Below are positions 14,109-26,909 of a stretch of DNA of 37,414 nt, in pieces. Source of the DNA: Candidatus Hadarchaeales archaeon. GTDB taxonomy: Archaea; Hadarchaeota; Hadarchaeia; Hadarchaeales; WYZ-LMO6. The translations under genes and the position numbers were made by a program. Below the pieces are notes generated by a model, which saw nothing but the letters and a program-made list of their open reading frames with translations, made no database searches and was not told the DNA's origin. Each line of letters opens with the position of its first letter. Position 1 is the first letter of the stretch. The stretch covers positions 1 through 37,414 of the forward strand of contig JAWCKR010000014.1 in assembly GCA_038851755.1 (NCBI GenBank), read 5' to 3'.

Positions 14109-14219
14109 TGCCGGGGGCGGGGCTCGAACCCGCGATCTCCGGATTTCCCATCATCCCAGAGGTCAGCACTCACAGCGGAGCTATGAGTCCGGCGCTCTAA
14201 CCATCTGAGCCACCCCGGC
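14109..14219 (-). tRNA. tRNA-Met(CAT), elongator type, 37-nt intron at 37/38 (14145-14181)
   Basis: Acceptor GCCGGGG/CCCCGGC-A; D arm GCTC..GAGC; anticodon arm CCGGA-CTCATA^A-TCCGG; T arm GCGGG-TTCGAGC-CCCGC; CTCA:TGGG central BHB helix. Confidence 0.93.
14145..14181 (-). ncRNA. Putative intron-encoded box C'/D' guide for 2'-O-methylation of tRNA-Met C34
   Basis: GCTGTGAGT-G-CTGA-CC-TCT-GG-GATGATG; guide pairs with ACTCATAGC; +5 rule gives C34. Confidence 0.65.
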
Positions 14220-15771: not shown

Positions 15772-15868
15772 GCGGCCGTGGTCCAGCCTGGTTAAGACCC
15801 GGGCTCCCCGTGAGCTGAACGCTCGGGGAGGGCCCGTGACGCGGGTTCGAATCCCGCCGGCCGCACCA
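15772..15868 (+). tRNA. tRNA-Gly(CCC) with 20-nt intron (15811-15830), CCA encoded
   Basis: GCGGCCG/CGGCCGC-ACCA; anticodon stem CGGGC/GCCCG; canonical bulge-helix-bulge (TCCC:GGGG, bulges CG^T and AG^G, GAGC/GCTC outer helix); TATA-like GTTAAAG at 15741. Confidence 0.9.
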
Positions 15869-25101: not shown

Positions 25102-25782
25102 CTATTCCCTGCGCAGGACGAGGAGGGCGTGGTCCTTCTCGTAGGGCTCCAGCACCCTGAGCTCCACCACCTCCACCCCCTCCCCCAGCTTCTCCCTCTC
25201 CTCCCTGAAGACCTCCCTCGAGTCCCTGGTGACGTCTATGCTCTTCGCCTTCACGAAGAAGAGGGCCCAGCCTCTGGGTCTGAGGAAGGCGGCGAGGTTC
25301 CTCCTCAGGATCTCGGTCTGGTCGGGCTGGGCCACGTCCTGGTAAATCACGTCCGCTTCCCCCACCAGAAAGCGGTAGGAGGCCGGGTCCCTGGCGTCGG
25401 CGAGGATGGGCACCATGTTCCTCCTGCGCTCGCAGAGGGGGATCAGGTCCCTCATGGGGCGGAAGGAAAACTCCACGCACCAGATCATCCCTTCCTCCCC
25501 CACGATGTCCGAGAGGTGGCTGGCCGTGGTGCCGGAGGCAGCGCCCAGGTAGAGGACGCGGGAGCCCCTCCGGACGGGCATCTCCCTCAGCCCCAGGTGG
25601 AGGGCCGAGGAGAGCTTGCTCCTGTAGGGATCCCAGACCCTGTACTCCACCCCTCCCACCTCCACCAGCTCCTCCCCGTAGACCCTCTGACCGGGAAGGG
25701 CGTTCCTGGTGGCCAGCTTTTTCCCCTCCGGGTACCTGAGCCAGTAGACCCCGGGGAACCTCTCCTCCACCTCCACCCTCAT
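25102..25782 (-). CDS. flpA: Fibrillarin (box C/D 2'-O-methyltransferase)
   Basis: VYGE, YRVWDPYRSKL, VLYLGAASGTTASHLSD, YQDVAQPDQ, KAKSIDVT, LEPYEKDH; start ATG 25782 overlaps the nop5 stop. Confidence 0.95.
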   Translation of the reverse strand: MRVEVEERFPGVYWLRYPEGKKLATRNALPGQRVYGEELVEVGGVEYRVWDPYRSKLSSALHLGLREMPVRRGSRVLYLGAASGTTASHLSDIVGEEGMIWCVEFSFRPMRDLIPLCERRRNMVPILADARDPASYRFLVGEADVIYQDVAQPDQTEILRRNLAAFLRPRGWALFFVKAKSIDVTRDSREVFREEREKLGEGVEVVELRVLEPYEKDHALLVLRRE

Positions 25783-26909
25783 CCCCTCCCACCCCTTATC
25801 TCGGCCAGGCGCCTCTCCAGCTCCGAGGAGAGCCTGTCGCCCAGGTACCCCCCGCCCATCAGGTCCACCCTGGCCGCTATGCTGACCTTCCCCGCCACCG
25901 CCCTGGCGATCTTCCCCCTGAGCTTCTTCGGGGCGGAGCGGAGGGGGGGGAAGCGGTAGAGCACGCCGTGCTTCGGTGGCTTCCCCTTCGTGCGCAGGGC
26001 CCTGAAGAGGGCCTTCTCCGCCCCCAGCACCTGGATGGTGCTCGTGGGCATCCTGGAGAGCCTCTCCAGCCCTCCCGCGAGGGAGATGAGGCGGGCGCCC
26101 AGCAGGCTGCCCACCACCGCCTTCAGGTTGGGGGCCACCTCCTCCATCCTGCGGTCCAGGTACTCGGCCAGCTCCCTGCGGAGGGAGAGGAGCCCGAGCA
26201 CCCCCTTCCCGCTCTCCCTCAGGACCTCCAGGTCCCCCTCCCCCAGTCCCACCCCGAGGGAGCTCCTGGCCGCGGAGGAGAGCCTCCTGGCCCTCTCGGG
26301 CGTGAGGCCCAGCCCCACGAGCCTTTCCTCCGTGAACTCCTCCCTCCTCCCCAGCGAGACCAGCAGCCTGACGTACTCCTCGTGGTCCCCCACCAGCCCG
26401 TCCAGCTCGGGGAAGTGGAGGGAGTACCACTCCCGCAGGAGGCCCACGAGGAGGTTGAGGGCCCTGTCCACCTCCTCCAGCATCCTGGAGGCCCCCACCA
26501 CGCACCGGTCCCTCTCCGCCATCCTCTCCCCCACCTCCCTCTTCGCCAGCTCCAGCGAGACCTCCCTCACCCTCTCGGAAAGGACCATCCCGCACCTGCC
26601 GGCCATCTCCTCCCCCCTCCTCCTCAGCTCCCTCCCCCCTCTCCCCGGGAACTCGGAGCGGAAGAGGACCCCGGGGAAGCGAGCCCCCAGCTTCCTCGCC
26701 AGCTCCTCCCCCTCCACCACGAACTCCCTGCACCCCTTCTCCACGAGCTCCTCCACCAGCTGGAGGTGCTCCGGGGTGGGCTCCCCCCTCCGCATGGCCC
26801 GGACCCTCTCCACGGCCTCCGCGGAGGACCCGAAGGCCCTGAAGGCCACCATCCTTTCCCCCTCGAAGGCGAAGACCCCTACAACGTTCTCCGCCAGCTG
26901 GAGCTCCAT
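25779..26909 (-). CDS. nop5: Nop5/Nop56/58 box C/D RNP core protein
   Basis: REWYSLHFPEL, APNL, GARLISLAGGL, STIQVLGAEKALF, PPKHGV, RGKIAR. Confidence 0.95.
   Translation of the reverse strand: MELQLAENVVGVFAFEGERMVAFRAFGSSAEAVERVRAMRRGEPTPEHLQLVEELVEKGCREFVVEGEELARKLGARFPGVLFRSEFPGRGGRELRRRGEEMAGRCGMVLSERVREVSLELAKREVGERMAERDRCVVGASRMLEEVDRALNLLVGLLREWYSLHFPELDGLVGDHEEYVRLLVSLGRREEFTEERLVGLGLTPERARRLSSAARSSLGVGLGEGDLEVLRESGKGVLGLLSLRRELAEYLDRRMEEVAPNLKAVVGSLLGARLISLAGGLERLSRMPTSTIQVLGAEKALFRALRTKGKPPKHGVLYRFPPLRSAPKKLRGKIARAVAGKVSIAARVDLMGGGYLGDRLSSELERRLAEIRGGRG

What the first reader, a model, noticed from the sequence alone, without database searches (positions are those of the whole stretch)
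14145..14188. The 37-nt tRNA-Met intron appears to be a minimal box C'/D' guide aimed at its own wobble C34
Seen (minus strand): intron GCTCCGCTGTGAGTG-CTGA-CC-TCT-GG-GATGATG-GGAA. CTGA is a perfect D box. CC/GG closes a short stem, followed by a 3-nt bulge (GAT) and GA-TG, which gives the tandem G.A, U.U and G-C pairs of a C'/D' kink-turn. Just 5' of the D box, GCTGTGAGT is antisense to ACTCATAGC (A31-A37 plus the first two intron bases; 9 bp, one G.U). The fifth base upstream of the D box pairs with C34. Established: the +5 rule; euryarchaeal tRNA-Trp introns carry full bipartite C/D guides; Haloferax tRNA-Met Cm34 is guided by a separate RNA (sR-tMet). Inference: here a single-motif half-guide inside the tRNA-Met intron directs Cm34. 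I do not know a described case, but I could not search the literature. Fibrillarin and Nop5 are encoded in the same window.
Basis: partly seen in the sequence, partly recalled or inferred. Interest (0 to 1): 0.9.

Follow-up and report, generated by a model that had tools for sequence, protein, structure and literature searches.

The report
Self-targeting methylation guide in tRNA-Met intron
The intron of this archaeon's methionine tRNA gene carries a small protein-binding kink next to an antisense stretch that looks built to direct methylation of the tRNA's own anticodon before the intron is cut out, a design shared by many archaea but reported only once, without a target.

Summary
The elongator-type tRNA(CAU) gene lies at window 14109-14219 (minus strand). 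Its 37-nt intron (14145-14181) reads: 9-nt antisense, G, CUGA, 7-nt loop, GAUGAUG, GGAA. The antisense pairs with A31-A37 plus the first two intron bases, and C34 sits opposite the fifth base upstream of CUGA.

The design recurs in 53 of 65 genomes of the class (Hadesarchaea). The guide covaries with the intron's first three bases, and the register never shifts. In two other phyla, relaxed versions occur in 22 of 42 and 45 of 121 genomes. There the loop is a covarying hairpin, which gives a textbook kink-turn. Shifting the register by one base drops the count to chance (9 and 10 of 121).

A sister-class genome has a short, plain tRNA-Met intron and a stand-alone C/D RNA aimed at the same C34. 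Fibrillarin, Nop5 and L7Ae are encoded. The same genome's tRNA-Trp intron is a full C/D guide.

Best reading (about 0.7): a single-kink-turn guide that directs Cm34 on its own precursor before splicing.

It is not unprecedented. The Nanoarchaeum equitans tRNA-Met intron, reported in 2012 as a stable "potential C/D box sRNA", has the same architecture. No methylation was measured here.

The parts
14109..14219 (-). Intron-containing tRNA(CAU) gene, elongator-Met type (G1-C72, A73; acceptor stem unlike the genome's tRNA-Ile)
   Evidence: Rfam RF00005, 61.2 bits. Sequence. The initiator (A1-U72) is a different gene on contig C10.
14182..14219 (-). 5' exon (positions 1-37)
   Evidence: Cloverleaf reading of the sequence.
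14145..14181 (-). 37-nt intron at the canonical 37/38 position
14109..14144 (-). 3' exon (positions 38-73)
14180..14188 (-). Target strand: A31, C32, U33, C34 (14185), A35, U36, A37, i1, i2
   Evidence: Pairing listed. Covariation.
14177..14179 (-). UCC loop joining target and guide. It is 3-13 nt and variable in relatives.
14168..14176 (-). Antisense guide GCUGUGAGU. It occupies positions 10 to 2 upstream of box D'. The G at 14170 is position 5 and pairs with C34.
14163..14166 (-). Box D' (CUGA)
   Evidence: Invariant in 41 of 41 distinct sequences.
14156..14162 (-). K-loop loop CCUCUGG. Its end bases pair (CC/GG).
   Evidence: Closing pair, columns 41-48: UA 25, CG 7, other 4. It is replaced by hairpins of 3 bp or more in other phyla.
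14149..14155 (-). Box C' region GAUGAUG (GAU bulge, then GA, U and G facing AG, U and C of CUGA)
   Evidence: AUGAU is invariant in 41 of 41. The same CUGA-N7-GAUGAUG arrangement occurs in this genome's tRNA-Trp intron.
14147..14150 (-). UGGG, the partner of C32-A35 in the central helix of the bulge-helix-bulge splicing fold. It overlaps the last two bases of C'.
   Evidence: 98.7% of cells paired.
25779..26909 (-). nop5 gene
   Evidence: Pfam Nop PF01798, E 1.4e-64 at 25803-26483. ORF.
25102..25773 (-). Fibrillarin gene (start codon not fixed)
   Evidence: Pfam Fibrillarin PF01269, E 8.3e-88 at 25111-25773. Frame.

Best explanation
The intron is a one-motif box C/D-type methylation guide built into its own substrate.

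Shown from sequence and comparison:
- A kink-loop is formed by box D' (CUGA) and box C' (GAUGAUG).
- It is immediately preceded by a 9-10 nt antisense stretch.
- That stretch pairs with the anticodon loop and the first intron bases of the same pre-tRNA-Met.
- C34 lies opposite the fifth base upstream of D'.
- This fold excludes the splicing fold.

Inferred:
- L7Ae binds the kink-loop.
- Nop5-fibrillarin docks on the guide duplex and 2'-O-methylates C34.
- The RNP then leaves. The 3' tail UGGG (partly shared with box C') pairs with C32-A35 to form the bulge-helix-bulge, and the splicing endonuclease removes the intron.

Not resolved:
- Whether the guide acts within one molecule or between two pre-tRNA-Met molecules held by a Nop5 dimer.
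- Whether the excised intron goes on working in trans.
For: 1. Conservation.
- BLAST with the pre-tRNA found full-length matches across the intron in relatives. All 28 that I parsed have the same layout.
- The pattern CTCATN{4,34}TGAGNNCTGAN{3,12}ATGAT hits 53 of 65 genomes of the class, with 0 reversed-pattern controls.

2. Covariation, on 41 distinct sequences.
- i1-guide pair: AU 17, GC 16, GU 7, CG 1, unpaired 0.
- i2: CG 38, UA 2, AU 1.
- i3: CG 32, UA 3, AU 1, GU 1.
- The next pair is unpaired in 33 of 37, so the duplex stops at about 10 bp.
- Because the guide tracks intron bases, the selected target is the pre-tRNA itself.

3. Kink-turn.
- In a second phylum, 16 of 21 distinct sequences have a hairpin of 3 bp or more, of varied sequence, exactly between NUGA and GAU-GA. 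0 of 2000 shuffles reach this.
- In the window's class the closing pair covaries UA/CG.

4. Register.
- In a third phylum the spacing that puts C34 at +5 gives 45 of 121 genomes.
- One base more gives 9 of 121 and one base less gives 10 of 121. Only 1 of those 20 matches lies at a tRNA-Met locus, through a second TGAG in the same intron.
- The three kink-turn introns found by BLAST rather than by pattern (G486, G512, G503) keep the register.

5. Complementary distribution.
- G065 (sister class) has a 15-nt plain intron.
- It also has a stand-alone C/D RNA whose D guide pairs 12 bp with its pre-tRNA-Met, with C34 at +5.

6. Machinery and internal control.
- Fibrillarin, Nop5 and two L7Ae-family genes are present.
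- The genome's tRNA-Trp intron is a full C/D guide with 12-nt spacers. Its fifth bases face C34 and C39.

7. Folding. The guide conformer is more stable than the forced splicing conformer in 41 of 41 (mean -19.8 against -14.3 kcal/mol).

8. Precedent. [quoted passage not shown] G612, which fits that description, has the same guide: 10 bp with C34 at +5.
Against: - No terminal C/D motif exists at the canonical 12-nt spacings (my reading of the sequence).
- Single-site C/D RNPs made in vitro were active but lost site specificity (Hardin and Batey 2006, abstract only). Earlier work reporting that both motifs are needed is recalled, not read.
- No data here show L7Ae binding, Cm34, or even transcription. 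The only runs available were assembled contigs and showed no joints.
- tRNA identity (elongator Met rather than Ile2-CAU) rests on acceptor-stem likeness and recalled knowledge. The third CAU tRNA was not found in this 93%-complete genome.
- The patterns used fix the register, so only the BLAST-derived sets and the shifted-register controls test it.
- A third helix (K-loop loop with 3' tail) would compete with the kink-loop.
- The outer helix of the splicing motif is poor, so the splicing fold is not a textbook one.
- The pair between D' position 1 and C' position 6 is not kept as a Watson-Crick pair in the other phyla.
Confidence: 0.7

Rival explanations
1. The kink-loop and the anticodon-masking hairpin are a folding or timing device for splicing. 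L7Ae would act as an RNA chaperone, or the hairpin would hold back the bulge-helix-bulge. No methylation is involved, and the +5 register is incidental.
For: - The guide hairpin buries the 5' splice site and is more stable than the splicing fold in 41 of 41.
- A loop-tail helix with some covariation (43-60: CG 17, UA 10, UG 6, CA 3) suggests a multi-state switch.
- There is no second K-turn.
Against: - The register is specific: 45 of 121 against 9 and 10 of 121 when shifted by one base.
- The duplex is held to about 10 bp.
- Where the intronic element is missing, a stand-alone guide aims at the same C34.
- C34 of elongator tRNA-Met is a known C/D target in Pyrococcus, haloarchaea and humans.
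Confidence: 0.13
2. The intron matters mainly after excision, as a stable (perhaps circular) small RNA that guides methylation of some other RNA such as rRNA.
For: - The N. equitans intron accumulates as a stable, abundant RNA (PMC3491384).
- tRNA introns, tRNA-Met introns included, circularise in haloarchaea (PMC7714728 and PMC12558985 passages).
Against: The 5' end of the guide covaries with the intron's own first three bases. An rRNA target could not impose that. I did not screen rRNA for complementary sites.
Confidence: 0.05
3. The gene is tRNA-Ile2(CAU). The hairpin would serve another C34 chemistry, such as controlling agmatidine formation, not ribose methylation.
For: Only two CAU tRNAs (the initiator and this one) were found in the genome, so the assignment is not closed.
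Against: - The acceptor stem GCCGGGG is unlike this genome's tRNA-Ile(GAU), which is GGGCCCG.
- GGGCC-type CAU tRNAs exist as separate intron-less genes in other archaea sampled (G485, G508).
- Intron-containing CAU tRNAs in Pyrococcus and Haloferax are the elongator Met.
Confidence: 0.04

Closest known systems
Nanoarchaeum equitans elongator tRNA-Met intron ('potential C/D box sRNA'; Randau 2012, PMC3491384)
   Same: - Same host gene and same order: antisense, box D, hairpin or loop, box C, tail.
- G612 (one contig of 490,885 bases) has a 66-nt intron with CUGA, GGGAUGA with G at intron position 30, and a GGGGGC/GCCCCC hairpin. These are the features named in that paper.
- Its guide pairs 10 bp with G30..i2, with C34 at +5.
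   Different: - The window's intron is 37 nt, has a 7-nt K-loop in place of the CCC/GGG stem, and lacks the extra GC hairpin.
- The paper names no target in the text I read.
Euryarchaeal pre-tRNA-Trp intron box C/D guide (Clouet-d'Orval 2001; Bortolin 2003; Singh 2004)
   Same: - Intron at 37/38.
- The guide duplex spans the exon-intron junction and targets C34.
- The guide fold and the splicing fold exclude each other.
- It is present in this very genome (G000:C2:67234-67362).
   Different: - The Trp intron is bipartite (C, D', C', D; two 12-nt guides; targets 34 and 39).
- The Met intron has only the D'/C' motif and one guide.
- The original papers were not held. I rely on reviews and recall.
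Stand-alone guides for C34 of elongator pre-tRNA-Met: Pyrococcus sR49, haloarchaeal sR-tMet
   Same: - Same target nucleotide.
- The duplex also includes intron bases, so methylation must precede splicing (PMC2584109 passage).
- G065 has such an RNA.
   Different: - Those are separate genes acting in trans.
- Grosjean 2008 wrote that the tRNA-Met guide is 'always exonic'. Here it is intronic.
Human SNORD97/SCARNA97
   Same: Box C/D RNAs directing Cm34 of elongator tRNA-Met (PMC6601510; title and abstract seen in the listing).
   Different: Eukaryotic, trans-acting, two cooperating guides.
Engineered half-mer or hemi C/D RNPs
   Same: - One K-turn plus one guide.
- A half-mer RNA with target was crystallised with Pyrococcus proteins (Xue 2010, as cited in a PMC6239191 passage).
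   Different: - Those are artificial.
- The hemi-complex was active but not site-specific (PMC1635284 abstract).
- The natural element has its substrate tethered by a short loop.

Membership tests
Archaeal box C/D sRNA (canonical, bipartite) | Terminal box C (RUGAUGA) and box D (CUGA) forming a K-turn | tested here: not met
   There is no C-like box 12 nt upstream of D' and no D-like box 12 nt downstream of C' (my reading of the sequence). The regex picks up the Trp intron but not this one.
Archaeal box C/D sRNA (canonical, bipartite) | Internal D'/C' motif (K-loop or K-turn) | tested here: met
   CUGA-N7-GAUGAUG. The boxes are invariant in 41 of 41. The closing pair covaries. A hairpin version occurs in 16 of 21 in another phylum.
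Archaeal box C/D sRNA (canonical, bipartite) | Guide immediately 5' of D/D', with the target nucleotide opposite the fifth base | tested here: met
   Register controls.
Archaeal box C/D sRNA (canonical, bipartite) | L7Ae, Nop5 and fibrillarin encoded | tested here: met
Archaeal box C/D sRNA (canonical, bipartite) | L7Ae binding and guide-dependent 2'-O-methylation | not testable with these tools
   Needs gel shift and methylation assays.
Intron-encoded self-guide of pre-tRNA (tRNA-Trp type) | Guide in a 37/38 intron, with a duplex across the exon-intron junction onto position 34 | tested here: met
Intron-encoded self-guide of pre-tRNA (tRNA-Trp type) | Second guide onto position 39, and both C/D and C'/D' motifs | tested here: not met
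   Only one guide and one motif (sequence).
Intron-encoded self-guide of pre-tRNA (tRNA-Trp type) | Guide fold and bulge-helix-bulge fold mutually exclusive | tested here: met
   Both use C32-A35. Energies.
tRNA-Met-intron C/D-like RNA (N. equitans type) | Elongator tRNA-Met intron with box D upstream of box C | tested here: met
tRNA-Met-intron C/D-like RNA (N. equitans type) | Intron accumulates as a stable RNA | tested here: inconclusive
   Only assembled contigs were on hand, and there was no RNA evidence.
Elongator tRNA-Met (versus initiator or Ile2) | Not A1-U72, and acceptor stem unlike tRNA-Ile | tested here: met
   The rule itself is recalled knowledge.

The most novel reading that the evidence does not exclude
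These introns are natural single-kink-turn C/D enzymes.

- The substrate is tethered to the guide.
- A three-way RNA switch orders methylation before splicing. The three states are the guide duplex, a helix between an anticodon-like K-loop loop and the 3' tail, and the bulge-helix-bulge.
- The design is old, being present in at least three archaeal phyla.
- It may be the ancestral form from which the stand-alone tRNA-Met C34 guides (sR49, sR-tMet, perhaps the eukaryotic SNORD97 line) were released as excised introns.
Probability: 0.2. Interest if true: 0.85.

Novelty: new member of a known kind. Interest (0 to 1): 0.62.

Why it matters
- It overturns the 2008 generalisation that the Cm34 guide for pre-tRNA-Met is always a separate gene.
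- It gives a function and a target to the unexplained stable tRNA-Met intron of N. equitans.
- It shows the design is common. It occurs in 53 of 65 genomes of this class, and in 22 of 42 and 45 of 121 genomes of two other phyla.
- It offers a natural test case for a long-standing question in the field: whether a C/D RNP needs two kink-turns to be active and site-specific.
- It gives a concrete reason why tRNA-Met keeps its intron in these lineages.

Tried and rejected
- The whole-collection pattern scan was too loose. It stopped at 120 rows, nearly all chance hits in bacteria, and only L204 was a true tRNA-Met.
- One search was wasted. The flanking Ns were ignored, so the pattern matched every CTCATA.
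- Search for a stand-alone guide in the window's genome.
  - [TC][AG]TGAGNNCTGA gave 3 sites: the intron; one at C8:45439 inside purine-rich sequence; and C3:73443-73454, which has no C box and lies antisense inside a 124-aa ORF. I rejected the last two.
  - Looser scans (and across 66 genomes, 31 matches in 26 genomes against 12 reversed controls) were noise-dominated. Apart from G065:C87 I examined none in detail. By my count, 8 of the 31 have T opposite A31, about the chance share.
- Family f5 (G012, G015) has an intron-less tRNA-Met. I found no convincing guide for it.
- Nine pattern-negative genomes of families f1, f2 and f4: BLAST found no tRNA-Met gene in them, so they say nothing either way.
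- A Halobacteriota-type phylum, reached through a locus titled Methanoregula: 14 of 401 genomes matched the strict pattern, none in a tRNA. I count 8 reversed-control matches.
- Sequencing runs: only contigs, no joints, no cover from the one clear RNA run. This gives no evidence on expression or splicing.
- Rfam at permissive thresholds names no C/D family for the intron.
- The pair between D' position 1 and C' position 6 does not covary across phyla.
- Papers not held: Clouet-d'Orval 2001, Joardar 2011, Bortolin 2003.
- Supplements were closed. Additional file 2 of PMC3491384 and Additional file 5 of PMC2584109 may bear on whether a target was ever listed.
- My statement that the self-target is not in print rests on searches, and on the passages read.

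Full report
WHAT IS THERE

Rfam finds a tRNA at window 14109-14219 on the minus strand, at 61.2 bits. ARAGORN without intron mode misses it. With introns allowed it mis-calls it Ser. Read as a cloverleaf, it has the acceptor stem GCCGGGG/CCCCGGC, A73, the anticodon stem CCGGA/UCCGG, the loop CUCAUA-A and a 37-nt intron between A37 and A38 (14145-14181).

The intron reads G C UCC GCUGUGAGU G CUGA CCUCUGG GAUGAUG GGAA. A script confirms nine contiguous pairs between guide positions 2-10 upstream of CUGA and A31-A37 plus i1 and i2. The pair at U36 is G.U, and C34 lies opposite position 5. The unconstrained fold of the pre-tRNA forms this hairpin.

The D'/C' motif on its own is at chance frequency in the window, 2 found against 1.29 expected. 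The combination with an in-register guide inside a 37-mer has an estimated chance of about 3e-8.

WHICH tRNA

The genome is G000: 1.25 Mb, 26 contigs, 62.5% G+C, 93% complete. It holds an initiator with A1-U72 and three G-C pairs in the anticodon stem, on C10. A gene that ARAGORN calls Met on C6 is really tRNA-Glu(CUC) with an intron in the anticodon. No third CAU tRNA was found.

The window's tRNA is unlike the genome's tRNA-Ile(GAU). It is like the GCCGGGG-type CAU tRNAs of many other archaea, several of which have introns. I take it as the elongator tRNA-Met. The identity rule is recalled knowledge.

CONSERVATION IN THE CLASS

The record title of one relative's contig reads 'Hadesarchaea archaeon' (L204).

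- BLAST with the pre-tRNA against 41 genomes gave matches across the intron. All 28 that I parsed have the same layout.
- A pattern fixing CTCAT, TGAG-NN-CTGA and ATGAT hits 53 of 65 genomes of the class, with no reversed-pattern hit.
- The phylum has 66 genomes.
- Of the 12 genomes without the pattern, three are family f5. Two of them (G012, G015) have an intron-less tRNA-Met. In the other nine, BLAST found no tRNA-Met gene at all. Their completeness is 70-93%.

COVARIATION

I aligned 41 distinct anticodon-arm-plus-intron sequences (A1). CUGA, AUGAU and UGAGU are invariant, while the two loops vary in sequence and length.

On the named structure:
- The i1-guide pair is AU 17, GC 16, GU 7, CG 1, never unpaired.
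- i2 is CG 38, UA 2, AU 1.
- i3 is CG 32, UA 3, AU 1, GU 1.
- The next pair is unpaired in 33 of 37.

The duplex is therefore held at about 10 bp (9 bp in the window's genus). That length is what a C/D RNP accommodates (recalled from structural work). For the whole structure, 92.9% of cells are paired against 83.7% in shuffles, and the covariation score is 0.320 against 0.135 (0 of 500 shuffles reach it). Slid controls give 34-52% paired. Because the guide's 5' end follows the intron's own first bases, the selected target is the precursor itself.

THE KINK-TURN

In the class, the first and last loop bases covary (UA 25, CG 7, other 4). The next pair is CG 16, UG 12, UA 1, other 7.

The decisive support comes from outside the class. 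BLAST against 38 genomes of other archaeal families turned up three tRNA-Met introns with the same order of parts (G486, G512, G503). A relaxed pattern (NUGA as D', up to 33 nt before GAUGA) then hit:
- 22 of 42 genomes of G486's phylum, with 1 reversed control;
- 45 of 121 sampled genomes of G512's phylum, with 2 reversed controls.

In the first of these phyla, 16 of 21 distinct sequences have a hairpin of 3-8 bp, of quite different sequence, exactly between NUGA and the GAU-GA. 0 of 2000 shuffles reach this. That is the canonical stem of a kink-turn, and it is kept by compensatory change.

REGISTER

My patterns fix the spacing, so I ran the third-phylum search again with one base more and one base less between TGAG and NUGA. 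This gave 9 of 121 and 10 of 121 genomes. These hits lie at loci unrelated to tRNA-Met, except one artefact through a second TGAG in a true intron. The +5 spacing gave 45 of 121. The BLAST-derived cases all keep C34 at +5.

COMPLEMENTARY DISTRIBUTION

G065, the one genome of the sister class, has an elongator tRNA-Met with a 15-nt intron and no boxes (L295). It also has a separate RNA with AUGAUGA, CUGA, AUGAGGA, a 12-nt spacer and CUGA (L216). The last spacer pairs 12 bp with G30..i4 of that precursor, with C34 at +5. This is the sR49/sR-tMet arrangement described for Pyrococcus and haloarchaea (PMC2584109 passage; PMC7994747 passage; PMC4033218 table). In the window's genome I found no such RNA.

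INTERNAL CONTROL AND MACHINERY

The tRNA-Trp gene of G000 (C2:67234-67362) has a 56-nt intron. Its layout is GUGAGGU, 12 nt, CUGA, 8 nt, AUGAUGU, 12 nt, CGGA. The fifth bases of the two guides face C39 and C34. So the organism uses intronic C/D guides, and its D'-loop-C' module is the same as in the Met intron.

Fibrillarin (window 25111-25773) and Nop5 (25803-26483) are adjacent on the minus strand. Two L7Ae-family genes lie elsewhere in the genome.

TWO OR THREE FOLDS

The tail UGGG (UGAG or UAGG in relatives) pairs with C32-A35 in 98.7% of cells. It leaves U36-A37-i1 and A-A-A38 as three-base bulges, which is the splicing motif. This fold cannot coexist with the guide duplex. In the window's genus it also takes the last two bases of box C'.

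With ViennaRNA at 37 C, the guide conformer beats the forced splicing conformer in 41 of 41 (mean -19.8 against -14.3 kcal/mol). The outer helix of the splicing motif is weak, by my reading.

A third helix is possible, between the K-loop loop (YYCAC) and the tail (GUGRG). It is 90% paired. Pair 43-60 is CG 17, UA 10, UG 6, CA 3. Fisher p is 0.005 without correction for relatedness. It would compete with the kink-loop, and I leave it unexplained.

EXPRESSION

Only assembled contigs of hot-spring runs were available. They show no joints and say nothing on RNA. A relative in two of those runs differs inside the intron only in the two loops.

LITERATURE

- Grosjean 2008 states that the pre-tRNA-Trp guide is always intronic and the pre-tRNA-Met guide 'always exonic' (passage).
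- Randau 2012 reports the 66-nt N. equitans tRNA-Met intron as stable and abundant. It notes a consensus box D, a box C with T-to-G at position 30 and a six-GC-pair hairpin, and calls it a potential C/D sRNA. No target is named (section 9 read).
- G612, one contig of 490,885 bases, has exactly such an intron, and its guide fits the same rule.
- Hardin and Batey 2006 found a single-site RNP active but unspecific (abstract).
- A half-mer RNA with target has been crystallised (passage in PMC6239191).
- I found no paper stating that a tRNA-Met intron guides its own C34. Three key papers and all supplements were out of reach.

VERDICT

The element is real. It is conserved and under selection for pairing with its own anticodon loop at the C/D register, next to a kink-turn. 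The most likely function is Cm34 formation before splicing (about 0.7). That step is inferred, not shown.

It is a new member, and with this analysis a first functional reading, of a kind glimpsed once in N. equitans. It is related to the tRNA-Trp intron guides.

Noticed in passing
window 15772-15865 (+): A second intron-containing tRNA. ARAGORN calls it Arg(ccg) without intron mode and Gly(ccc) with it. Its intron contains GUGAG-CUGA but no C'-like box.
   Followed up: no
alignment A1 columns 43-46 with 57-60 (window about 14157-14161 with 14147-14150): The K-loop loop (YYCAC) can pair with the 3' tail (GUGRG) that otherwise forms the splicing helix. It is 90% paired. Pair 43-60 is CG 17, UA 10, UG 6, CA 3. 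It competes with the kink-loop, and its role is unknown.
   Followed up: partly
G000:C2:67234-67362 (-), outside the window: The tRNA-Trp intron is a very compact (56 nt) full C/D guide. Its terminal boxes are degenerate (GUGAGGU and CGGA) while its internal ones are consensus.
   Followed up: partly
G000:C6:7030-7081 (-), outside the window: A candidate canonical C/D sRNA (AUGAUGA ... CGGA ... AUGAGGG ... CUGA) lies between two tRNA genes. My strict regex found only 5 candidates in the whole genome.
   Followed up: no
G000:C6:6878-6980 (-), outside the window: ARAGORN calls this gene tRNA-Met. It reads better as tRNA-Glu(CUC) with a 28-nt intron inside the anticodon.
   Followed up: partly
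G000:C2:6793-6908 (+), outside the window: A weak tRNA match (31.5 bits) with a long insert containing GGAUGAAG and CUGCGA. Not analysed.
   Followed up: no
G000:C2:119433-119515 (+), outside the window: Two copies of a repeat of about 37 nt ending in AUGAGGAUUGAAAG, 72 nt apart at a contig end. It looks like a CRISPR array (seen output).
   Followed up: no
G000, whole genome: No tRNA-Ile2(CAU) gene was found in this 93%-complete assembly.
   Followed up: partly
G009:C4:43159-43170 (L212): Directly downstream of a tRNA lies a stretch ending in UAUGAGGG-CUGA. It would pair with a CCCUCAUA loop with C34 at +5, but it has no clear C box and no matching tRNA was identified.
   Followed up: no
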